DNA from: Nocardioides sp.
Lineage (GTDB): Bacteria; Actinomycetota; Actinomycetes; Propionibacteriales; Nocardioidaceae
Assembly (NCBI RefSeq): GCF_041913365.1
Contig: NZ_JAYSFM010000004.1
Coordinates: 34,348 to 98,347 of the forward strand
Direction: 5' to 3'
DNA: 64,000 nucleotides
The first letter of the stretch is position 1, and every line of letters begins with the position of its first letter. The translations under genes and the position numbers were made by a program. Positions 36,285 through 44,805 of the stretch are shown here, in pieces. The notes beneath the pieces were generated by a model. It did no database searches. It saw only the letters and a program-made list of their open reading frames with translations, and was not told the DNA's origin.

Positions 36285-37355
36285 GTGGACGTCCTCGACT
36301 CAGTCGTCATCGGTGCCGGGCAGGCGGGCCTCGCCGCGTCGTACTTCCTGCGCCAGCGGGGCATCGACCACGTGGTGCTGGACGCCAACCCCGAGCCCGG
36401 CGGCGCCTGGCAGCACCGGTGGTCCTCCCTCAGCATGGACGACGTGCACGGCGTCGCCGACCTCCCCGGCTCCGCGGCACCGGCGGGGTCGCGGCACGCG
36501 GCCAACCTCGTGGTGCCGGACTACTTCGGCGACTACGAGCGGAGCCAGGGGCTTCCGGTGGTGCGGCCGGTGCGGGTCGAGCGCGTCGACACCGAGGGCG
36601 ACCTGCTGGTCGTGCGTGCCGGCGAGCACGAGTGGCGTACGCGCACGCTCGTCAACGCCACCGGCACCTGGACGCGGCCGTTCGTGCCGTTCTACCCCGG
36701 CATCGAGACGTTCGCGGGGGAGCAGGTGCACACCGCGCACTACCCGGGCGCCGAGCACTTCCGCGGCACGCGCGTGCTCGTGGTGGGCGGCGGGGCGTCC
36801 GCCGTGCAGTTCCTCGGCGAGCTCGCCCCGATCGCCGACACCCTGTGGGTCACCCGGCGGCCGCCGGTCTGGCGCGAGGAGTTCGACGCGTCGGCCGGGC
36901 TGGCCGCGGTGACCGCCGTCGAGGAGCGCGTACGCCGTGGGCTCCCGCCCGCCAGCGTGGTCAGCGTGACCGGGCTCAAGCTGCGGCCGCAGGAGCAGGA
37001 GGCCGCCCGGCTGGGTGCCTACGAGCGGCTGCCGATGTTCTCCCGGATCGAGCCCGACGGGGTCCGCTGGGCCGACGGCAGGTCCGAGAGCGTCGACGTG
37101 ATCCTGTGGGCGACGGGGTTCCGGCCGGCGGTGGACCACCTGGCGCCACTCGGCCTGCGGAGCCCCGAGGGCGGCATCGCCCTCGTGCCGGTGCCCGGCA
37201 ACGTGCAGGGCGCGACCACCGCCGAGCGCGACCCGCGCGTGCAGCTCGTCGGCTACGGGCCCTCCGCGAGCACGATCGGCGCCTCGCGGGCCGGCCGGCA
37301 GGCGGCGCTCGCGGTGTCCCGCCACCTCGCGGCCGAGCCCGCCATCGCGGGCTGA
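36285..37355 (+). CDS. FAD/NAD(P)-dependent flavoprotein monooxygenase-like oxidoreductase
   Basis: VIGAGQAG, NATGTW, HTAHY, VVGGGASA, WATGF. Confidence 0.88.
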   Translation: MDVLDSVVIGAGQAGLAASYFLRQRGIDHVVLDANPEPGGAWQHRWSSLSMDDVHGVADLPGSAAPAGSRHAANLVVPDYFGDYERSQGLPVVRPVRVERVDTEGDLLVVRAGEHEWRTRTLVNATGTWTRPFVPFYPGIETFAGEQVHTAHYPGAEHFRGTRVLVVGGGASAVQFLGELAPIADTLWVTRRPPVWREEFDASAGLAAVTAVEERVRRGLPPASVVSVTGLKLRPQEQEAARLGAYERLPMFSRIEPDGVRWADGRSESVDVILWATGFRPAVDHLAPLGLRSPEGGIALVPVPGNVQGATTAERDPRVQLVGYGPSASTIGASRAGRQAALAVSRHLAAEPAIAG

Positions 37356-37357
37356 TT

Positions 37358-37406
37358 GTCAACCTTCGTCAACCGGCGTCAACCGCCTCCCGGGCGGCCG
37401 CACGGT
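37358..37406 (+). promoter_or_regulatory. Triple GTCAAC box (10-bp period) plus -10-like CACGGT, upstream of lipoprotein A
   Basis: GTCAAC at 37358, 37368, 37378; 17 nt then CACGGT; same layout at 43673. Confidence 0.8.
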
Positions 37407-37456
37407 GGTCCCAACGCCGCACCCGACCGGGGTCGGCAACCTGAAGGGACACGACC

Positions 37457-37717
37457 ATGAACACCAACGGAAACACCATTCGCAAGGGCTTCGCCGCCGT
37501 CACCGCTGCCACCGCGTTCTTCGCCATCACCGCGTGTGGGACCGAGGCCGCCCCGCCGTCACAGGACATCGGGGGCACGCAGCAGCAGCAGAACGAGCCG
37601 CGGTCGCCCAGGACCACCATCCCGAGGACTGACTTCAACGACGAGTTCGGCGACGCCGAGCCGGAGCAGCCGGGGAAGGATCACGATCCCATCGACCGCA
37701 CGAAGGACTGGCACTGA
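37457..37717 (+). CDS. Small lipoprotein A (86 aa), unknown function
   Basis: Signal peptide RKGFAAVTAATAFFAITA-C, GAAGGGA RBS; paralog at 43769. Confidence 0.82.
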   Translation: MNTNGNTIRKGFAAVTAATAFFAITACGTEAAPPSQDIGGTQQQQNEPRSPRTTIPRTDFNDEFGDAEPEQPGKDHDPIDRTKDWH

Positions 37718-37728
37718 GAGACCGGGGG

Positions 37729-37757
37729 CCGGGCGGCGGACGGGGTACGTCGCCCGG
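37729..37757 (+). terminator. Hairpin after lipoprotein A
   Basis: CCGGGCGGCG/CGTCGCCCGG stem (one G-U). Confidence 0.4.
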
Positions 37758-37801
37758 TCCCGTCCCTGCCGGGCCTTTTCTCGGGCCGCCGCTCGATCTC
37801 C

Positions 37802-40699
37802 TCATCCCGCCGCTGTCCCGGCGATCGCCCGGGACAGCGGCACGTGCTCGCGGGCATCAGCTGCAGCCCGCTTGAGCAGCCTCGCCGCCACCGTGCCCTG
37901 CCGCTCGCGCAGGGCGCACTGCGCGGCCCGCCACCTGGCGTACCCCGCGTTGTGTGGGCGGCCGAGCCCGTCCCAGCCGGCCGCGGCTTGCACCCAGGCG
38001 TCGACGGTCGCCCGGTCCTCGCACCTGGCGAGTTCTGCCTCGAAGGCCGCACGGTGGGCGCCGAGGTTGTGGTCACCGGCATGGTCGCTCAGGAGGCCGG
38101 CCTTGTCGGCCAGGGCGCGTAGTGCCTCGCGGTCCCGACCTGCTCGATCGGCACCGGTCTCCGACCCGGCCTGGTGGGCGACGCAACGGGCCGCGACCAC
38201 CAGGGCCGGCGCGACCACTCGGATCGGCGTACCTCCCGCGACGAGGTCGAGGGCGCGGAGCAGGCGGGTCCTCGCCGGCTCCGGCTCATCGGCCCAGCAG
38301 CCGACGGACCCTGCGGTGACCAGGAGTTCGAGGTCCGTCTCGAGGTTGCCGGCCACCGTCGCCCAGATCGCGGCCAGCCGATCCTGGGCAGCCTGGTGGG
38401 CCCCTCGCGCCGAGTCGACTGCCGCGCGCAACCCGTGCAGGTGGAAGCGACCGACGTCGACTGGCTCGCTGCGGCCGATGCCGATCTCGTCCTCCGCCGC
38501 GTCGATCCGTCCAGCGCGCAGGAGCGCGATGGCCAGGTTGATGTGCAGGATGGCCACTTGCGGGTTGGCGATGCCGTGCTCGTCCGCCACCGCGAAGCCC
38601 CCGTGGGCCAGGTCGGCGACAGCGGCGAGTGGACGGCCGTTGATGAGGAGGACGTCTGTGGCGGCGACCGCCTGGCGGAGGTCGCCCAGCGGGTCGAGCG
38701 ACAGGCCGGCGCGCTGCTTCGACCCGGCGAGCATGCGCACTGCCTCGTCCGTCCTGCCTTCCACACCTGCGTGCCAGGCGGCATCCATCACGCAGTCGCG
38801 CAGCACGATGCGGTCACCCAGCGCTTCCGCCGCCGCGAGCTTGGCCTGAAGGGCGTCGCGCGCCTCGTCGAAGCGCCCGGCGGCCTCGAGGAGGTTGACC
38901 CTCCAGTCCAGTGCGTGCAGCGTCCCGGAGCACAGGGGGACGTGCTCGAAGAGCCGGAGGGACTCGTCGATCAGTGCACGAGCGACCGAAGCCCCCTCGC
39001 GCTGGCCGCGGAACTCGGCCGCACGCCACAGGAGCTCGGCCCGGACCGCGTCATCGACGTCGCCGAGGACGTCACCCGCCTGGTCACTCATCGCCGCCGC
39101 TCGATCCCACTGGAGCGAGAACCTCAGGCCGTCCATCGCCTCCAGGTACGCACCGGCACGGGTGATCGGGGGATCGACGTCGGGCGACGCATCGTCGGGC
39201 CACACCTCCAGCGCGCGCAGCCAGTGCTCCGCCTCCCGGCCGCGGTCGTAGCGCCGGGCGGCGGCCCGGGCGGCCGAGATCCGCCACTGGAGCTCGGGTT
39301 CGGGCAGGCCGGCCCGTTGGAAGTGCTCAGCCACCTCCGCCGGCTCGGCGTCGGGAGTCGCAGCCAGAGCCTGGCCAACGGCCCGGTGCACCGCCTGGTC
39401 CTCCCCGGCCACGAGCCGCTGCTGGACTGCCTCGGCGAGCAACGGGTGCTGGAGCTCGATGGCCTCACCGACGCGCCGGAGCAGGAGTCGCTCCCTCAGC
39501 TCGCGCACGCGGCGGGTGAGGGTGTCGGCGTCGACGCCGACCGCCTCCGCAAGGACCGCGGGACGAACGGGCCTGGCTGCGGCCCCCAGGACGCGGAGCA
39601 CCGACCACGACTCCTCGCTGGTGCCGGCGAGGCGCCGGTCGAGCAGGTCGAGCAGGAGGCTCGGCAGGCCGTCGCCCTCGTCCAGCTGGACGGCCAGCTG
39701 TTCGGTGAACAGCGGCTGGCCACGGCTTCGCGCGTGGATCGTGTCGATCGTCTCGACCTCGACCGTGCCGAGGAGGGCGAGCTGGTCGGCGGTCTCGTCG
39801 CGGCTGAGTGGACCGAGCTCCATCACCGAGGCGGCCGGCAGGCGGCGTCGTACCCGGACCAGCCACTCCTCGCTCGCGACTGGTGTGCCCGGGTCGCCAC
39901 GTCGCCAGGTCCCGACCACGGGGACCGAGACGGAGCGACCAAGGAGGTACTCGACGAGGTCCAACGTCATGGGATCGGCCCAGTGGAGGTCCTCGATCTG
40001 GAGTGCGAGGGGCCGGTCCTCGCATAGCGCCTCGACCACGGCTGCCACCGCGGCGAAGAGGAGGCCCTGGTCACCCGTGCGGCCGGGAAGATCGGACGAG
40101 GACTGGATCTCCGGTAGGAGCGCCGACACCGAAGCCGTGACGTACGGCGCACAACGGCCCAGGGCGTCGCGGAGCCAGGCGCCGTCGCGCGCACCATGGA
40201 CTGCCCGCAGCACGTCCGCGACGGGCAGCAACGGGATCACGGTCGACAGCGGCAGGCACTGCCCACCCGCGACGAAAGCCTCGGTCGACGCGGCCGCGGC
40301 CTCGATCAGGGTGGTCTTGCCGATGCCCGCTTCGCCGGTGACGAGGAGGAGGCCGGTGCCGGTCTCGAGGTGGTGTCGTACGACGTCGAGCTCGGCGCGG
40401 CGGCCGGCGATGCGGGGTGCGGTGGGACGGTCGCCGTTGGTGGGGGTGGTGGCGGCGAGCCAGAGGTCGTGGAAGGTGGTGGTGTCTCCGTCCATGGCCT
40501 CGACGAGGAGCTCGAGGGTGCCCCAGGCGGGGAGCGCCGGGCGGGAGAAGGTCTTGGAGACGGTGGTGTGGGAGACGCCGGTCTCGCGTGCGAGGGTGCG
40601 GAGGGAGGGCCAGCCGGCCTGGTGGTGGAGGTCGTGCAGGGCGTCGTTGAGCGTCCGGACGGGTCCGGGCGCGAGGTCGGGGCGGGGGAGGGCGCCCAT
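37802..40699 (-). CDS. HTH-STAND regulator 2 (965 aa): XRE-like HTH, AAA/LAL-type NTPase, helical sensor region, no LuxR domain
   Basis: LRTLARETGVSHTTVSK HTH; GEAGIGKTT Walker A; IEDLHWAD Walker B; TGATG overlap with the upstream paralog. Confidence 0.88.
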   Translation of the reverse strand: MGALPRPDLAPGPVRTLNDALHDLHHQAGWPSLRTLARETGVSHTTVSKTFSRPALPAWGTLELLVEAMDGDTTTFHDLWLAATTPTNGDRPTAPRIAGRRAELDVVRHHLETGTGLLLVTGEAGIGKTTLIEAAAASTEAFVAGGQCLPLSTVIPLLPVADVLRAVHGARDGAWLRDALGRCAPYVTASVSALLPEIQSSSDLPGRTGDQGLLFAAVAAVVEALCEDRPLALQIEDLHWADPMTLDLVEYLLGRSVSVPVVGTWRRGDPGTPVASEEWLVRVRRRLPAASVMELGPLSRDETADQLALLGTVEVETIDTIHARSRGQPLFTEQLAVQLDEGDGLPSLLLDLLDRRLAGTSEESWSVLRVLGAAARPVRPAVLAEAVGVDADTLTRRVRELRERLLLRRVGEAIELQHPLLAEAVQQRLVAGEDQAVHRAVGQALAATPDAEPAEVAEHFQRAGLPEPELQWRISAARAAARRYDRGREAEHWLRALEVWPDDASPDVDPPITRAGAYLEAMDGLRFSLQWDRAAAMSDQAGDVLGDVDDAVRAELLWRAAEFRGQREGASVARALIDESLRLFEHVPLCSGTLHALDWRVNLLEAAGRFDEARDALQAKLAAAEALGDRIVLRDCVMDAAWHAGVEGRTDEAVRMLAGSKQRAGLSLDPLGDLRQAVAATDVLLINGRPLAAVADLAHGGFAVADEHGIANPQVAILHINLAIALLRAGRIDAAEDEIGIGRSEPVDVGRFHLHGLRAAVDSARGAHQAAQDRLAAIWATVAGNLETDLELLVTAGSVGCWADEPEPARTRLLRALDLVAGGTPIRVVAPALVVAARCVAHQAGSETGADRAGRDREALRALADKAGLLSDHAGDHNLGAHRAAFEAELARCEDRATVDAWVQAAAGWDGLGRPHNAGYARWRAAQCALRERQGTVAARLLKRAAADAREHVPLSRAIAGTAAG

Positions 40700-43593
40700 C
40701 ACGCGCCTGCCGCGGTGCGGGTGATGGCTTGGGTGAGCGGGACGTGCTCGCGCGCGTCTGCTGCGGCTCGCTTGAGCAACCGCGCGGCGACCGTGCCGCG
40801 ACCCTCGCGCAGGGCGCACTGCGCCGCGCGCCATCGGGCGTACGCCGCGTCGTGCGGGCGGTCCAGGGCGTCCCATCGCGCGGCCACGTCCGCCCAGAGG
40901 GCTGCAGTGGCGGTGCCGTCGTGCCGGGCCAGCTCGGCGCTCACGGCGCAGCGGTGCGCTGCCACGCACGGATCGTCCGACGGCCCCGCGGAGCCGATGC
41001 CGCACCGCTCGGCCAGCTCCAGCACGACCTCCCGGTAGGGGGAGCGTCCGCGGGTCGGGTCCGCCCCGCTGGCGATGGAGCGAGCGGCCCCCACGACGGC
41101 GCGGAAGAGCATCCGGGGCGACGCGCCACCGTCGAGGTTCACCTGGATGCAGTGGAGGATCTGGTCGATCAGCCGGGTCGGCGTCCCGGTCCAGTAGTCC
41201 ATGTCCACGAGCTCGCCCAGGAAGTCCGACTGGACCGAGTCGGGGGCGCCCACGACGCGTCGTACCTCCTCGAAGCGCGCCGCACCCTCGATCACCCGCC
41301 CGGAGATAACGTCGATCTCGGCGCGGAGGAAGTGCAGCACCCAGTGGTCGTAGTCCGGCGGGTCGTCGGGGCCGACCCCCAGCAGTGCCGTCGCGCGGGC
41401 GACCTGTCCGGCCCGCAGCATCGCCTCCACGACGTTCCCGCGCAGGAACATCACCATCTCGCTGTCCACCCCGAGCGACGTCGCGGCCTCGAACGCGGGC
41501 CGGGCCACGGCCTCGATCTCGTCAACGGTGGCGCAATTCTTGAGGAGCACGTCCGTAGCCATCACCGCCTGCCGGATGTCGCCCAGCGGGTCCGTGCCGT
41601 CCGGGGTCAGCGCCGCCGCCTGTCGCAACAGCTCGAAGCATCCGGCCACGTCCCCGTCGGTGCCGTGCGGACCGGCCAACGTCGTGCGGTGGTACCTCTG
41701 GAGGCGTGCGTCGCCGATCCGGGCGGAGACCTCCGCCGCCTCGCGGACGTGGACGAGCGCCTCGTCGAACCGTCCCAGGTCCTCCAGCAGCAGCCGCTTC
41801 CGGTTGAGCGCACGGACGAGGCCGGGTCCTTCGGGCAGGAGCCGGTGGATCTCGAGCGCCTGGTCGATCAGGGCCAGGCCGACCGACACGCCCTCCTGCT
41901 CGCCGCGGAACGCCGCCGCGCGCAGGAGCACCTCGACGCGCACCTCCTCCGGCGCGGTGGCGAAGCGGTGCTCCGCCTCGGCGCTCAGGGCCGCGCCCCG
42001 GTCCCACTGGAACGACTCGTCGAGGGCATCGATCGCCGCGAGGTAGGCGTCCGACAACCGGGTGGGTGGCTCACCCACGCTGTCGAGCCCGTCGGGCCAG
42101 ATCTCCAGGACCCGCAGCCACTGCTCGGCTTCCTGGCTCCAGTCGAACCGCCTCGCCGACTCCAGCGCGGCCGCGACGCGCCAGGGCAGCTCCTCCCCGG
42201 GTTCGGTGGCTCGCTGCCAGTGCAGGGCGACCTCGGCCGGCTCGGGTGCGGGGCTGTTCGCAAGGGCCCGGGCCAGGCGACGGTGCACCTCGCGACCCTC
42301 GCCCGGCACGAGCCGGCGCCGCGCGGCTTCGGCCAGCAGGGGGTGGTCGAGCACGGCGTTGTCGGCGTCGTCGCCACGGCCGAGCAGGCGCAGGGCGCGC
42401 AGCGACCGCATCGCCTCCGCCAGCTCGTCCACCTCGAGCCCAGCGATGGTCCCCACCACGGTGGCGGGCAGTGGTCGGTCGGCAACGCCGAGCGCGCGGA
42501 CCACGCGCCACGGCGCCGGGTCGAGGCCCTCGAGCCGCGCGTCGAGCAGGTCGGAGAGGGCGTGGGGCAGCCCGGCCTCGGGCAGGTGGGCGGCGAGGTG
42601 CGTCGTGAACAGCGGGTGCCCGCGGCTCCGCGAGAAGACGGCCTCGACGTCGGCCACGGTGCCGAGCCCGACGAGCTGCGCCTCGGTCTCCTCGCGGGTC
42701 AGCGGGCCGAGGCGCACAGTCGAGCTGGCCGGCGCCCGCTCGACGCGCGCACGCCACTGGGTGCTGACGGCCGGCGTGCCGGGGTCGCCGTCCCGCCAGG
42801 TCCCCACGAAGGCGAGGTCCCCGTCCGCGGCCGACAGCGCCATGTGCTCGAGGAGGTCCAGCGTGACGGTGTCCGCCCAGTGCAGGTCCTCGAGCACCAC
42901 CGCCACGCGACCGTCGCGCGCCAGCGCAGCCAGCGCCGCTCCCACGGCGGTGAACAGGTGCTGGCGCCCCAAGGAGTCGTCCGCCGCGGTGGCGGTCCCG
43001 AGCTCGGGCACGAGCCTCGCCAGCTCCACGGCCACGAACGCCGGGCAGGAGGCGAGGGCTGTGGCCAGCCGGCGCCCGTCGTCCTGCGCCAGCGCATCGC
43101 GCAGCGCGTCGCACACCGGCATCAACGGCACGTCGATCGACAGCGGCAGGCACCGACCAGCCAGCACGAGCGCGTCCGGGGACGCCGTCGCCGCCTGCAC
43201 GAGCGTGGTCTTGCCCATCCCCGCCTCGCCGGTCACGAGCAGCAGGCCCCTGCCGTGTGCCAGGTGGCGGCGTACGACGTCGAGCTCGGCGCGGCGGCCG
43301 GCGATGCCCGGACCGGGTGCCGGGCCGCTGCCGTTGGTCGGGGAGGAGGCGGCGAGCCACAGGTCGTGGAAGGTGCCGACGTCGCCGCCCAGCGCTTCGA
43401 CGAGGAGCTCGAGCGTGCCCCACCCCGGCAGCGCGCCCGAGGAGAAGACCTTCGAGACGGTGGTGTGGGAGACCCCCGTCTCCCTGGCGAGCGTGCGCAG
43501 CGAGGGCCAGCCGGCGCGGTGGTGGAGGTCGTGGAGGGCGTCGTTGAGCGTCCGAGCCGGACCCGCGACGTCGGGTCGGGGAAGTGCGCTCAT
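40699..43593 (-). CDS. HTH-STAND regulator 1 (964 aa), paralog of the downstream gene
   Basis: Same HTH; GEAGMGKTT; LEDLHWAD; GGAGGG RBS before ATG43593. Confidence 0.88.
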   Translation of the reverse strand: MSALPRPDVAGPARTLNDALHDLHHRAGWPSLRTLARETGVSHTTVSKVFSSGALPGWGTLELLVEALGGDVGTFHDLWLAASSPTNGSGPAPGPGIAGRRAELDVVRRHLAHGRGLLLVTGEAGMGKTTLVQAATASPDALVLAGRCLPLSIDVPLMPVCDALRDALAQDDGRRLATALASCPAFVAVELARLVPELGTATAADDSLGRQHLFTAVGAALAALARDGRVAVVLEDLHWADTVTLDLLEHMALSAADGDLAFVGTWRDGDPGTPAVSTQWRARVERAPASSTVRLGPLTREETEAQLVGLGTVADVEAVFSRSRGHPLFTTHLAAHLPEAGLPHALSDLLDARLEGLDPAPWRVVRALGVADRPLPATVVGTIAGLEVDELAEAMRSLRALRLLGRGDDADNAVLDHPLLAEAARRRLVPGEGREVHRRLARALANSPAPEPAEVALHWQRATEPGEELPWRVAAALESARRFDWSQEAEQWLRVLEIWPDGLDSVGEPPTRLSDAYLAAIDALDESFQWDRGAALSAEAEHRFATAPEEVRVEVLLRAAAFRGEQEGVSVGLALIDQALEIHRLLPEGPGLVRALNRKRLLLEDLGRFDEALVHVREAAEVSARIGDARLQRYHRTTLAGPHGTDGDVAGCFELLRQAAALTPDGTDPLGDIRQAVMATDVLLKNCATVDEIEAVARPAFEAATSLGVDSEMVMFLRGNVVEAMLRAGQVARATALLGVGPDDPPDYDHWVLHFLRAEIDVISGRVIEGAARFEEVRRVVGAPDSVQSDFLGELVDMDYWTGTPTRLIDQILHCIQVNLDGGASPRMLFRAVVGAARSIASGADPTRGRSPYREVVLELAERCGIGSAGPSDDPCVAAHRCAVSAELARHDGTATAALWADVAARWDALDRPHDAAYARWRAAQCALREGRGTVAARLLKRAAADAREHVPLTQAITRTAAGA

Positions 43594-43672
43594 GGGGCCC
43601 TCCAACCACCCATTCCTCAGGTCGAGGATCCTCCCGCCGGCGACGCTCCGGCAACCCGATTCCGTCTCTGCT

Positions 43673-43721
43673 GTCAACGATCGTCAACACGCGTCAACCC
43701 GCCTCCGCGCGGATCGAGGGT
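43673..43721 (+). promoter_or_regulatory. Triple GTCAAC box (10-bp period) plus -10-like GAGGGT, upstream of lipoprotein B
   Basis: GTCAAC at 43673, 43683, 43693; 17 nt then GAGGGT. Confidence 0.8.
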
Positions 43722-43768
43722 GGTGCCCATCGCCGGACCCGAACCGGCCCACCCGAAGGAGCACTGCC

Positions 43769-44059
43769 ATGTCCACCACATCCATCACCACCGTGCGGCG
43801 AGGCTTCGCAGCCGCAGCTGCCACCGTCGCCCTCGTGACACTCGCTGCGTGTGGCACCGAGGTCGCACCACCGAAGAACGACATCGGAGGAGCGGGCCCC
43901 AAGGAGCCCCTCCCCACCTTCACGCTGGAGGACTGCCTCAACCCCGGGAAGCAGCCCCCCGTCACCACCTGCCCCTACCCGGTCCAGTCCGGTGACGAGA
44001 TCGCCGGCACCCTCAACCGGCTGCAGTACGACGACGAGTACGGACGCCCCGGCCGCTGA
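43769..44059 (+). CDS. Small lipoprotein B (96 aa), paralog of lipoprotein A
   Basis: RRGFAAAAATVALVTLAA-C-GTEVAPPKNDIGG; GAAGGAG RBS; hidden at the end of the track ORF 42062..44059. Confidence 0.85.
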   Translation: MSTTSITTVRRGFAAAAATVALVTLAACGTEVAPPKNDIGGAGPKEPLPTFTLEDCLNPGKQPPVTTCPYPVQSGDEIAGTLNRLQYDDEYGRPGR

Positions 44060-44075
44060 GACCTCCCTCGGGGGT

Positions 44076-44104
44076 GGGCGCGGCGGCATGGAGCCGTCGC
44101 GCCC
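44076..44104 (+). terminator. Hairpin after lipoprotein B
   Basis: 12-bp stem GGGCGCGGCGGC/GCCGTCGCGCCC (one G-U). Confidence 0.5.
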
Positions 44105-44160
44105 GCCGGTCCTGACGCCCGTCACGGGTCAGGATCGCGGCGGCTCGCTAGGCTGACGCC

Positions 44161-44805
44161 ATGGGGGAGATCGAGAACCGCCCGCACGACCCGTCGCAGA
44201 TGCGCATCTCCGACGCCGACCGCCAGCGCGTGGCCGACGTGCTGCGCGATGCGGCCGGCGAGGGGCGGCTTGACCTCGACGAGCTGGAGGAGCGGCTCGA
44301 GCTGACCTTCCAGGCCAAGACCTACGGCGAGCTGGTGCCGATCACCCTGGACCTCCAGGCGACGGGCCCGGTCACCCCGCCGGCGCACGCGCCCGTGCGT
44401 CGGGCGTCCCACCTCCCCGCGGTCGGACACAACTCCTCGACCGCGATCATGAGCGAGTGCAAGCGCCAGGGCGTCTGGGCCGTCCCGGCGCACCACAGCG
44501 CCTTCGCCCTCATGGGCAGCGTGCTGATCGACCTCCGCCAGGCCCAGCTGTCCGGCCACGAGACCCAGATCAACGCCAGCGCGATCATGGGCGAGGTCAA
44601 GGTCATCGTCCCGGCCGACATGCACGTCGTGGTCGACGGGACGCCGATCATGGGCGAGTACAACCAGGCCAAGGACAAGGTCCCGGCCGAGCTGCGCCCG
44701 GACTCGCCGACCGTGCGGATCCGCGGCATGGCCCTCATGGGATCGGTGACGGTCCAGCGCCAGCCCCCGCCCGGCACGCCGAAGAAGATCATCGGCACCT
44801 ACTGA
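44161..44805 (+). CDS. DUF1707 (SHOCT-like) plus LiaF/DUF2154-like domain protein
   Basis: MRISDADRQRVADVLRDAAGEGRLDLDELEERLE; MGSVLIDLR; leaderless TAGGCT-6nt-ATG. Confidence 0.88.
   Translation: MGEIENRPHDPSQMRISDADRQRVADVLRDAAGEGRLDLDELEERLELTFQAKTYGELVPITLDLQATGPVTPPAHAPVRRASHLPAVGHNSSTAIMSECKRQGVWAVPAHHSAFALMGSVLIDLRQAQLSGHETQINASAIMGEVKVIVPADMHVVVDGTPIMGEYNQAKDKVPAELRPDSPTVRIRGMALMGSVTVQRQPPPGTPKKIIGTY

What the first reader, a model, noticed from the sequence alone, without database searches (positions are those of the whole stretch)
37802..43593. Inverted LAL architecture and mosaic conservation of the two STAND paralogs
Both proteins end (...AAADAREHVPL.....TAAG) where, from memory, LAL/LuxR-type actinobacterial regulators continue into a LuxR HTH. 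They carry an N-terminal XRE-like HTH instead. The HTH region is 60/69 identical and a C-terminal stretch 33/35 identical, whereas the helical middle is by eye about half identical or less. This fits conserved DNA binding and oligomerisation with diversified ligand sensing, possibly as hetero-oligomers (inference).
Basis: partly seen in the sequence, partly recalled or inferred. Interest (0 to 1): 0.65.

Follow-up and report, generated by a model that had tools for sequence, protein, structure and literature searches.

The report
LuxR-less LAL regulators with N-terminal HTH
Two adjacent genes encode large ATP-switch regulators that are close relatives of LuxR-type "LAL" regulators but carry their DNA-binding domain at the opposite end. 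They most likely switch on two neighbouring genes for small secreted proteins through a triple GTCAAC repeat found nowhere else in the genome.

Summary
Two translationally coupled genes on the minus strand (B 40699-43593, A 37802-40699) encode 964 and 965 aa paralogs that are 47% identical. Identity is 60/69 in the N-terminal HTH, 33/35 near the C-terminus and 41% in the middle. Neither has a LuxR domain, hidden or frameshifted.

The N-domain folds as an XRE/Cro-type five-helix HTH. Residues 97-959 are homologous (34% identity, E 2e-78) to classical LALs of other actinobacterial families. Those LALs share the ...GYARWR...EHVPL..AI motif and then continue into a GerE/LuxR domain. The "inverted LAL" description is therefore correct.

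The mosaic is not specific to this pair. It follows the conservation profile of the whole family (r = 0.88). Synonymous sites rule out recent gene conversion.

The nearly invariant HTH has a plausible operator: GTCAAC-N4-GTCAAC-N4-GTCAAC. It occurs only twice in the 4.64-Mb genome, both times beside this operon, 17 nt upstream of a -10-like hexamer of a small secreted-protein gene. It recurs beside family members in other genomes.

The C-terminal stretch is a cap shared with the LuxR-bearing relatives, so nothing marks it as an oligomerisation element. Hetero-oligomers remain untested. N-terminal DNA-binding STAND regulators (AfsR, GutR) are already known, so this is a new variant of a known kind.

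The parts
40699..43593 (-). Gene B, the upstream paralog (964 aa): XRE-like HTH, AAA_16 STAND NOD, helical/TPR solenoid, no LuxR domain
   Evidence: ORF and translation. AAA_16 at E 1e-20, no GerE. 48% identical to A.
37802..40699 (-). Gene A, the downstream paralog (965 aa), same architecture. Its ATG overlaps B's TGA (TGATG), which indicates translational coupling.
   Evidence: The AF2 model has mean pLDDT 91.3. The best Foldseek hits are the STAND-TPR protein 6mfv and Avs3 (8dgc).
43342..43593 (-). N-terminal HTH domain of B (residues 1-84). The recognition helix SHTTVSK is identical to that of A.
40445..40699 (-). N-terminal five-helix HTH domain of A (residues 1-85), followed by a low-confidence linker (residues 86-97)
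   Evidence: AF2 places helices at 13-27, 33-40, 44-52, 59-68 and 73-84. The top 50 Foldseek hits are all XRE/Cro-C1 proteins such as C.Esp1396I, HipB, SinR, ClgR and DdrO, with TM-scores on the target of 0.65-0.73.
39410..40408 (-). NOD of A (residues 98-430): P-loop NTPase, helical domain and winged helix. It carries Walker A GEAGIGKT, Walker B IEDLHWAD, sensor Arg266, GxP (G327/P329) and the winged-helix His418-Pro-Leu. All of these are invariant in the family.
   Evidence: hhalign of the family profile against this genome's own LAL gives probability 99.9 and E 5e-35.
38015..39409 (-). Variable helical/TPR solenoid of A (residues 431-895), the presumed sensor. A-B identity here is 26-50%.
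   Evidence: Between the paralogs dN is about equal to dS in residues 666-895. Between close orthologues dN/dS is 0.11-0.40.
37805..38014 (-). Conserved C-terminal cap of A (residues 896-965; W..L.RPH.AGYARWRAAQCALRE..GTVAARLLKRAAADAREHVPL..AI). B has the equivalent at 40702-40911.
   Evidence: 74% A-B identity. Present in all 23 family members taken from genomes and in a LuxR-bearing LAL relative.
43673..43698 (+). Triple direct repeat GTCAACgatcGTCAACacgcGTCAAC. It lies 80 bp upstream of B's start on the opposite strand and 17 nt upstream of the -10-like hexamer GAGGGT (43716-43721). Candidate operator.
   Evidence: One of only two matches in the 4.64-Mb genome, allowing up to 2 mismatches. 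Conserved beside family genes in other genomes.
37358..37383 (+). Second triple repeat GTCAACcttcGTCAACcggcGTCAAC, 17 nt upstream of the -10-like hexamer CACGGT (37401-37406)
43769..44059 (+). Small lipoprotein gene (96 aa) with lipobox LAAC, a Cys...TCPYPVQSGD motif and the C-terminal sequence RLQYDDEYGRPGR. It is divergent from B and starts 70 nt after the box.
   Evidence: No Pfam family matches.
37457..37717 (+). Small lipoprotein gene (86 aa) with lipobox ITAC and the motif RTDFNDEFG. It is convergent with A and starts 73 nt after the box.
   Evidence: No Pfam family matches.

Best explanation
A and B are signal-sensing STAND (NOD) transcription regulators that derive from the LAL lineage by a swap of the DNA-binding domain. 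The C-terminal LuxR HTH is absent and an XRE/Cro-type HTH sits at the N-terminus, tied to the NOD by a flexible linker of about 12 residues.

Proposed mechanism. The first part is inferred by analogy with MalT, GutR and AfsR. In the resting state the solenoid sensor and the NOD hold the protein inactive. Binding of an unknown cue to the variable solenoid allows ATP binding and NOD-driven oligomerisation.

The remaining steps are inferred from sequence. Oligomerisation lines up several HTH domains head-to-tail on three GTCAAC hexamers spaced one helical turn (10 bp) apart. The last hexamer lies at the -35 position of a promoter that has only a minimal NANNNT -10 element. Binding there switches on the small secreted-protein genes that flank the operon. 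Box 1 lies 80 bp upstream of B, so it may also feed back on the B-A operon.

The mosaic conservation is the family-wide constraint pattern. The HTH is nearly invariant, consistent with one shared operator. The nucleotide-switch motifs are conserved. The C-terminal cap is conserved and inherited from the LuxR-type ancestor. The mid and late solenoid diverged after each duplication and is then maintained within each orthologous line. On this reading the two paralogs deliver two different inputs to the same two promoters.
For: Shown here:
- Architecture and fold.
- End-to-end homology with LuxR-bearing LALs, including the C-terminal motif.
- No LuxR domain in any frame or in any of 50 members.
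- Walker A/B, sensor Arg, GxP and winged-helix His are invariant, and both paralogs carry them intact.
- The A-B identity profile correlates with family conservation at r = 0.88.
- Synonymous divergence at the conserved ends (pS 0.37 and 0.57) is similar to the rest of the gene (0.46-0.56), so the conservation reflects selection on the protein and not recent gene conversion.
- The triple box occurs exactly twice in the genome, against an expectation of 1e-4, and both copies flank this operon.
- In a scan of 121 genomes of the genus there were 14 hits and none for the reversed control pattern. Twelve of the 14 lie beside family genes. Eight of 18 family-positive genomes have the box, against 2 of 103 family-negative genomes (Fisher p = 2e-6).
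- In all 13 promoters inspected the box ends 17 nt before a NANNNT hexamer, and a small secreted-protein ORF starts 70-79 nt after the box in 11 of the 13 inspected downstream; the L013 class II gene starts at +29 and the weak L021 box was not examined.

Precedent: AfsR has the order N-terminal DNA-binding domain, NOD, TPR. It binds direct repeats that overlap the -35 element, and its NOD and TPR inhibit it until ATP binds (PMC10936776).
Against:
- The link between the HTH and the box rests only on co-occurrence and position. Another factor could bind the box.
- XRE-type HTH domains usually bind inverted repeats as dimers, so binding to direct repeats would be unusual for this fold.
- Pfam HTH matches for A and B are below threshold, and a profile search of PDB sequences gave only E >= 0.08.
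- Four of the 15 related loci that were fetched (L017, L020, L025, L026) have no box within 700-1500 bp. Three of them are second-locus copies in genomes that carry a box elsewhere.
- The sensed signal is unknown.
Confidence: 0.65

Rival explanations
1. Receptor-signal circuit. The small secreted proteins are pro-signals. A processed, re-imported fragment, for example the conserved C-terminal peptide, is the ligand of the solenoid sensor, and the regulator activates its own signal gene. This is the logic of RRNPP quorum sensing, with a STAND switch inserted between the HTH and the TPR. It refines the main model rather than contradicting it.
For: The small genes are the only conserved targets and always sit beside the receptor genes. 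All classes have export signals, and most keep a conserved acidic-aromatic motif at the extreme C-terminus: RLNFGDNGL, RLDFGDNGL, ARITDFMP, RTGFDDFMP, RLQYDDEYGRPGR. The window's lipo2 carries the motif internally, and the L013 class II protein ends differently. Paralogous receptors have diverged sensors, and paralogous small proteins also differ.
Against: No oligopeptide permease or processing protease is linked to the locus. STAND clades do not track small-protein classes in the tree. The products are lipoproteins or proteins of 55-70 residues after signal-peptide cleavage, not obviously peptides. They could simply be outputs of the circuit.
Confidence: 0.2
2. Obligate hetero-oligomer. A and B work only together as a mixed NOD oligomer, like paired sensor and helper NLRs.
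For: The stop and start codons overlap (TGATG), which implies coupled and roughly equimolar synthesis. The same coupling (ATGA) is seen in the G037 pair, and a 5-nt gap separates adjacent genes of the G507 tandem array. The two proteins have identical recognition helices and a shared operator.
Against: Several genomes have a single copy: the syntenic G043 locus has one intact gene (G043 has a second copy elsewhere), and G060 and G069 have one in the whole genome. Others have three in a row. Both A and B keep every NTPase and switch motif, so neither looks like a degenerate helper. Tandem pairs in different genomes are not orthologous pair by pair.
Confidence: 0.12
3. Conflict or defence sensor. 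The proteins are Avs-like pattern-recognition STANDs that detect an invader protein and respond by transcription of a small envelope protein.
For: The family is patchy (18 of 121 genomes), with 1-5 copies per genome, tandem arrays and gene remnants. Between paralogs dN is about equal to dS in the late solenoid. Avs3 is among the best structural matches.
Against: No PADLOC defence model matches. The N-terminal domain is a DNA-binding HTH and not a nuclease, protease or other toxic effector. The genes sit in a syntenic chromosomal slot among housekeeping genes. Orthologues are under purifying selection.
Confidence: 0.08
4. The mosaic is an artefact of recent gene conversion that homogenised the two ends of the tandem copies.
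For: The genes are adjacent and in the same orientation. pS in the HTH segment (0.37) is slightly lower than the gene average (0.50).
Against: pS at the C-terminal block is 0.57, as high as anywhere in the gene. Only 51-68% of conserved degenerate codons are identical at the two ends. The same two blocks are conserved in all family members from other species.
Confidence: 0.03

Closest known systems
[quoted passage not shown]
   Same: The AAA_16 NOD, winged helix and helical sensor are homologous end to end: 34% identity over A residues 97-959 with a 1001-aa LAL, and hhalign probability 99.9 with this genome's own LAL. The C-terminal ...YARWR...EHVPL..AI cap is the same.
   Different: There is no C-terminal GerE/LuxR HTH, and an extra N-terminal XRE-like HTH is present. 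The proteins therefore fail the defining LuxR feature.
AfsR and other large SARP / SARP-LAL regulators (Streptomyces)
   Same: The domain order is N-terminal DNA-binding domain, NOD, TPR. The targets are direct repeats phased by one helical turn that overlap the -35 element of a weak promoter. The NOD and TPR gate the DNA-binding domain through ATP (PMC10936776). AfsR's target afsS also encodes a small protein (my own knowledge).
   Different: The DNA-binding domain here is a five-helix Cro/C1-type HTH, not an OmpR-type winged helix plus BTAD; there are no Trans_reg_C or BTAD hits. There are three 6-bp boxes at 10-bp spacing, not two 11-bp repeats.
GutR of Bacillus subtilis
   Same: It is cited as a prototypical STAND activator that binds inducer and then ATP (PMC10936776). 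From my own knowledge it has an N-terminal HTH, a central NTPase and a C-terminal TPR, which is the same domain order.
   Different: The relationship was not tested here because no sequence was at hand. GutR senses glucitol and regulates a catabolic operon. As far as I recall its NTPase is NB-ARC-like rather than AAA_16/LAL-like.
RRNPP peptide-sensing regulators (PlcR, Rgg, NprR, PrgX)
   Same: They have an N-terminal XRE-type HTH and a C-terminal TPR-like sensor. A gene for a small exported pro-peptide lies adjacent and is under their control, and the active part of the pro-peptide is at its C-terminus (established knowledge).
   Different: RRNPP proteins have no NTPase switch, are about 300 aa long, and bind inverted repeats as dimers. 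The family here has a 330-aa NOD inserted and direct-repeat boxes. Ligand identity has not been tested.
Avs (antiviral STAND) proteins and the STAND-TPR protein PH0952 (6mfv)
   Same: These are the best structural neighbours of the whole model: a NOD followed by a long TPR sensor.
   Different: Avs proteins carry enzymatic N-terminal effectors and defend against phage. Here the N-terminal domain is an HTH, and no PADLOC model matches.

Membership tests
STAND NTPase superfamily | P-loop NOD with Walker A GxxxxGK[ST] and Walker B hhhhD/E | tested here: met
   GEAGIGKT in A and GEAGMGKT in B; IEDLHWAD and LEDLHWAD. G122-K128 and D237 are invariant in 50 members. AAA_16 matches at E 3e-18 and 1e-20.
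STAND NTPase superfamily | Helical domain with a GxP motif, a winged helix with a conserved His, and a C-terminal repeat sensor | tested here: met
   G327/P329 and H418-P419-L420 are invariant. AF2 shows a winged helix at 380-416 and a solenoid at 433-964. The top Foldseek hits are 6mfv and 8dgc.
LAL (LuxR-family large ATP-binding regulators) | N-terminal AAA/NOD module homologous to MalT-type LALs | tested here: met
   hhalign E 5e-35 against this genome's own LAL. BLASTP E 2e-78 over residues 97-959 against the LAL at L031.
LAL (LuxR-family large ATP-binding regulators) | C-terminal LuxR/GerE-type HTH | tested here: not met
   No GerE hit in A or B at E<=1 or in 50 members at E<=0.01. tblastn with this genome's own LuxR domains gave noise only, and there is no open continuation after the stop. 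The positive control, the L031 LAL, gives GerE at E 7e-19.
XRE / Cro-C1 HTH | Five-helix lambda-repressor-like fold with the HTH formed by helices 2 and 3 | tested here: met
   AF2 of residues 1-95 has pLDDT 85 and five helices. All of the top 50 PDB neighbours are Cro/C1-type proteins, with target TM-scores of 0.65-0.73 and E about 0.01.
XRE / Cro-C1 HTH | Sequence match above the Pfam gathering score (HTH_3 or HTH_31) | tested here: inconclusive
   A and B fall below the cut-off: HTH_3 scores 17.4 bits against a cut-off of 23. Eight of 50 members reach HTH_3 at E<=0.01, and one matches HTH_31 at E 7.7e-7. A protein found with the N-domain profile (P0230) passes HTH_31 with 32.1 bits against a cut-off of 27.
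Large SARP (AfsR-type) | N-terminal OmpR-type winged helix plus BTAD | tested here: not met
   A and B have no Trans_reg_C or BTAD hits. This genome's own SARP-type paralog on contig C2 is a different protein.
Large SARP (AfsR-type) | Direct repeats phased by one helical turn that overlap the -35 of the target promoter | tested here: met
   This holds at sequence level only. Three GTCAAC hexamers are spaced 10 bp apart, and the last one ends 17 nt before a NANNNT hexamer in 13 of 13 promoters. Binding has not been shown.
Antiphage STAND (Avs and related) | Match to defence-system models, or an enzymatic N-terminal effector | tested here: not met
   PADLOC gives no defence STAND model, only weak CasR winged-helix noise. 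The N-terminal domain is an HTH.
RRNPP | HTH fused directly to a TPR domain that binds a re-imported peptide | not testable with these tools
   The architecture differs because a NOD is inserted. Peptide binding needs experiment. Only the gene-neighbourhood logic is similar.
GutR-type STAND activators | Sequence homology to B. subtilis GutR | not tested
The architecture comparison comes from memory and from PMC10936776.

The most novel reading that the evidence does not exclude
The locus may be an actinobacterial cell-cell signalling circuit of a new type. Each HTH-NOD-solenoid protein would be the cytoplasmic receptor for a processed fragment of the small exported (lipo)protein encoded beside it. 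The receptor would activate that gene through the triple GTCAAC box, giving positive feedback. Tandem receptor and pro-signal duplications would create several private channels that converge on one shared operator. This would be an ATP-gated analogue of RRNPP quorum sensing.
Probability: 0.18. Interest if true: 0.8.

Novelty: new variant of a known kind. Interest (0 to 1): 0.5.

Why it matters
This is a clean natural example of a DNA-binding domain swap on an otherwise conserved LAL chassis. LuxR-bearing sister proteins are available for direct comparison. It therefore offers a test of how a STAND switch transmits activation to a DNA-binding domain placed at either end.

The family also comes with a compact and specific predicted regulon: one 26-bp operator type and one or two small target genes. 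That makes the input-output function of an orphan STAND regulator unusually easy to test.

If the small exported proteins turn out to be the signals, this would be a peptide-type communication system in Actinobacteria, where such systems are poorly known.

Tried and rejected
- Hidden or frameshifted LuxR domain: tblastn and three-frame reading found none.
- Gene conversion as the cause of the mosaic: rejected because synonymous divergence is no lower at the conserved ends.
- Positive selection on the sensor between orthologues: not seen. Domain-wide dN/dS is 0.11-0.40 in three close orthologue pairs. The ratio approaches 1 only between old paralogs, where dS is near saturation.
- Defence-system models: PADLOC gave nothing.
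- Sequence search of the PDB with the whole protein gave no hit. The N-domain profile gave only generic HTH hits with E >= 0.08.
- NCBIfam gave only sub-threshold partial hits to TOMM_kin_cyc.
- The sigma-70 consensus scan did not pick up the box promoters, as expected for activator-dependent promoters.
- Co-phylogeny of STAND clades with small-protein classes: no tidy pattern, and the deep nodes are unresolved.
- The literature searches found no paper that describes this family or the GTCAAC box.
Full report
**What is there**

The region holds two minus-strand genes in a DNA segment of about 73% G+C. B runs 40699-43593 and encodes 964 aa. A runs 37802-40699 and encodes 965 aa. A's ATG overlaps B's TGA (gcgTGATGggc), a classic sign of translational coupling.

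The neighbours are ordinary chromosomal genes: an MMPL transporter, a PEP-mutase-like enzyme, an FAD oxidoreductase, a DUF1707/LiaF-like protein, an alpha-amylase-family enzyme and a melibiase.

**Checking the observation**

- BLASTP gives 48% identity over the full length.
Overall identity is 456/975 and the middle is 327/800. Such windows are far beyond chance for the mean identity (3.5e-12 and 2.3e-9).
- By domain, A-B identity is 81% (HTH), 51% (NBD), 41% (winged helix), 26-50% (solenoid) and 74% (last 70 residues).
- No LuxR/GerE domain is present in A or B at E<=1 or in any of 50 family members at E<=0.01. A tblastn of the LuxR domains of this genome's own LALs against 37000-44200 gave only noise, and no frame continues past the stops.

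**Domains**

- Only AAA_16 passes the Pfam cut-off.
- AlphaFold2 with a 50-sequence alignment gives a confident model with mean pLDDT 91.3. It has a five-helix N-domain (residues 13-84), a disordered linker (86-97), a P-loop NOD with helical and winged-helix subdomains (98-430), and an all-helical solenoid that runs to the C-terminus.
- The best PDB neighbours of the whole model are the STAND-TPR protein 6mfv and Avs3, followed by generic TPR proteins.
- The N-domain modelled alone has pLDDT 85. All of its top 50 structural neighbours are Cro/C1 (XRE) HTH proteins, including C.Esp1396I, HipB, SinR, ClgR and DdrO, with target TM-scores of 0.65-0.73.
- Sequence-level HTH matches for A and B are sub-threshold. 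One family member matches HTH_31 at E 7.7e-7, and P0230, a protein outside this family found with the N-domain profile, passes HTH_31.
- Walker A, Walker B, the sensor Arg, GxP and the winged-helix His-Pro-Leu are invariant across the family, and both paralogs carry them intact.

**Is it an "inverted LAL"?**

Yes, in the evolutionary sense.

- The family profile aligns with this genome's own classical LAL with probability 99.9 and E 5e-35.
- In a scan of 401 genomes of the class, hits covering residues 1-965 were found only in the window's own genus. Homologues in other actinobacterial families match from about residue 97 to residue 961.
- One of these, L031:1483-4485, is a 1001-aa protein with AAA_16 at 7-173 and GerE at 931-985. 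It aligns with A residues 97-959 at 34% identity (E 2e-78). It shares the C-terminal motif (...GYARWR.A..L...AA..L..AA..A.EHVPL..AI) and then continues through a 30-aa linker into the LuxR HTH.
- The same comparison shows that the conserved C-terminal stretch is an inherited cap of the sensor solenoid. It is not an element peculiar to the inverted form, and nothing points to it as the oligomerisation surface.

**The mosaic is a family property**

- More than 100 clusters of proteins of about 955-990 aa share the architecture. Those that carry a name are labelled Nocardioides.
- In a 50-sequence alignment the N-terminal 85 residues and the last 50 or so are nearly invariant.
- The A-B identity profile correlates with the family conservation profile at r = 0.88.
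- Synonymous divergence between A and B is pS 0.37 in the HTH and 0.57 in the C-terminal block, against 0.46-0.56 elsewhere. The conservation is therefore purifying selection on the protein and not recent gene conversion.
- Between the paralogs, dN is about equal to dS in solenoid residues 666-895.
- Three pairs of close orthologues from two other genomes show dN/dS of 0.05-0.40 in every domain.
- Sensors thus diverged after duplication and are then maintained.

**Distribution and dynamics**

- In the window's own genome only A and B belong to the family. The other AAA_16 regulators are two LuxR-type LALs and one SARP-type protein.
- In the genus, 18 of 121 genomes have the family, with 1-5 copies. 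Arrays of three occur in G037, G052, G115 and G507. Remnants of decayed copies occur in G043.
- Many copies occupy the same chromosomal slot, between the DUF1707/LiaF gene and the FAD oxidoreductase.
- In the tree, A is sister to the single copy at the syntenic G043 locus, and B is sister to that pair. The duplication therefore predates the split between these species. Deep nodes are unresolved.

**A candidate operator**

Earlier first-stage notes pointed to small lipoprotein genes and GTCAAC boxes. I checked these leads independently.

- Two small genes flank the operon: 43769-44059 (96 aa, lipobox LAAC) and 37457-37717 (86 aa, lipobox ITAC).
- Each is preceded by GTCAAC-N4-GTCAAC-N4-GTCAAC, at 43673-43698 and 37358-37383.
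- With up to two mismatches allowed, these are the only two matches in the 4.64-Mb genome. Even the exact double box occurs nowhere else. The expected number of exact triples is 1e-4.
- The same box lies beside family genes in 11 of 15 related loci that were fetched, counting a degenerate copy beside the L027 gene, and beside the G507 array.
- In a scan of 121 genomes of the genus there were 14 hits and none for the reversed control. Twelve of the 14 are adjacent to family genes. Eight of 18 family-positive genomes have the box, against 2 of 103 family-negative genomes (p = 2e-6).
- In 13 of 13 promoters the last hexamer ends 17 nt before a NANNNT hexamer.
- In 11 of the 13 promoters inspected downstream, an ORF for a small exported protein starts 70-79 nt after the box; the L013 class II gene starts at +29 and the weak L021 box was not examined.
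- The small proteins fall into three classes. Two are lipoproteins and one has a Sec-type signal. They share an RR-containing signal region, and most keep a conserved acidic-aromatic C-terminal motif. No Pfam family matches them.

**Mechanism**

The best-supported reading is an ATP-gated STAND activator. Its tethered HTH domains, brought together by NOD oligomerisation, would occupy three hexamers phased by one helical turn at the -35 position of an otherwise weak promoter.

This resembles two known cases. MalT binds arrays of direct MalT boxes (established knowledge). AfsR has an N-terminal DNA-binding domain followed by a NOD and TPR. It binds direct repeats that overlap the -35 element, and its NOD and TPR inhibit it until ATP binds (PMC10936776).

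Because A and B have identical recognition helices and the two boxes are identical in their hexamers, both proteins should act on both promoters. Their diverged sensors would supply different inputs.

DNA binding, the signal and the oligomeric state are all inferred.

**Rivals**

- A receptor-signal (RRNPP-like) circuit is compatible with the data and is the most novel option (about 0.2).
- An obligate A-B hetero-oligomer is possible, but it is not required by the family, since single-copy genomes exist and both proteins have intact motifs.
- A defence role has weak support: the family is patchy and expands in tandem, but there is no PADLOC hit and the N-terminal domain is an HTH.
- Gene conversion is rejected.

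**Comparison and novelty**

The proteins are STANDs and LAL relatives but fail the LuxR criterion, so they are not LALs in the strict sense. They are not SARPs.

STAND regulators with an N-terminal DNA-binding domain are already known: AfsR and SARP-LALs, and GutR from my own knowledge. The N-domain profile also finds an HTH_31 plus NB-ARC protein (P0230) and a SARP-HTH-AAA_16-TPR fusion (P0157).

The architecture in itself is therefore a new variant of a known kind and not a new category.

What I found described nowhere in the searchable literature is this particular family together with its triple-box operator and its small exported-protein targets.

Noticed in passing
window 44161-44805 (+): A DUF1707 (SHOCT-like) plus LiaF-C-like gene lies 101 nt downstream of the box-driven lipoprotein gene on the same strand, and the scan found no terminator between them. 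The same order (box, small gene, DUF1707 gene) is seen in G037, with a 25-nt gap, and in G073. The gene may therefore belong to the same transcription unit, which would suggest a link to envelope stress.
   Followed up: partly
P0157 (1233 aa): One representative protein carries Trans_reg_C and BTAD (a SARP module) in front of this family's HTH (residues 275-364), followed by AAA_16 and TPR. That would be two different DNA-binding domains on one STAND, unless it is a gene-call fusion.
   Followed up: no
L014:14900-17812 versus L015:15112-18027: Between these orthologues dS is 0.11 in the HTH segment but 0.58-0.81 in the rest of the gene. This suggests recombination or conversion of the HTH-coding segment alone in that lineage.
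   Followed up: no
L016:12340-12888 and L016:13793-14419 (G043): Short ORFs similar to internal parts of the family protein (48% identity to A residues 264-409) lie a few kb from the intact gene. They look like remnants of decayed tandem copies.
   Followed up: no
L033:5255-5280 (G112:C8): A good triple box (GTCAGC/GTCAAC/GTCAAC), followed after 17 nt by AACGCT, sits in a genome with no family gene at E<=1e-50 and none within 5 kb. It may be an orphan promoter left after gene loss.
   Followed up: partly
L013:14785-17742, L014:10176-13181, L015:10364-13381: These belong to a divergent subfamily. The N-terminus reads MGLLHQPELEPGPH, the recognition helix is SHTTV[FY]H, and a 30-50 residue Pro/Ser/Ala-rich tail follows the GHVPL motif. 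This subfamily is the middle or last gene of the three-gene arrays.
   Followed up: no
window 43769-44059 and 37457-37717; small ORFs in L013-L024 and L035: Most of the small exported proteins have an RR or RK pair before the hydrophobic segment (for example TVRRGFAAAA), which resembles a twin-arginine signal. Classes II and III share a Cys...TCP pair that could form a disulfide.
   Followed up: no
genome contigs C4 (about 187-190 kb on the reverse strand), C7:95304-98477, C2: The same genome has two classical AAA_16-TPR-LuxR LALs and one BTAD-AAA_16-TPR (AfsR-like) protein. All three placements of a DNA-binding domain on an AAA_16 STAND therefore coexist in one organism.
   Followed up: partly
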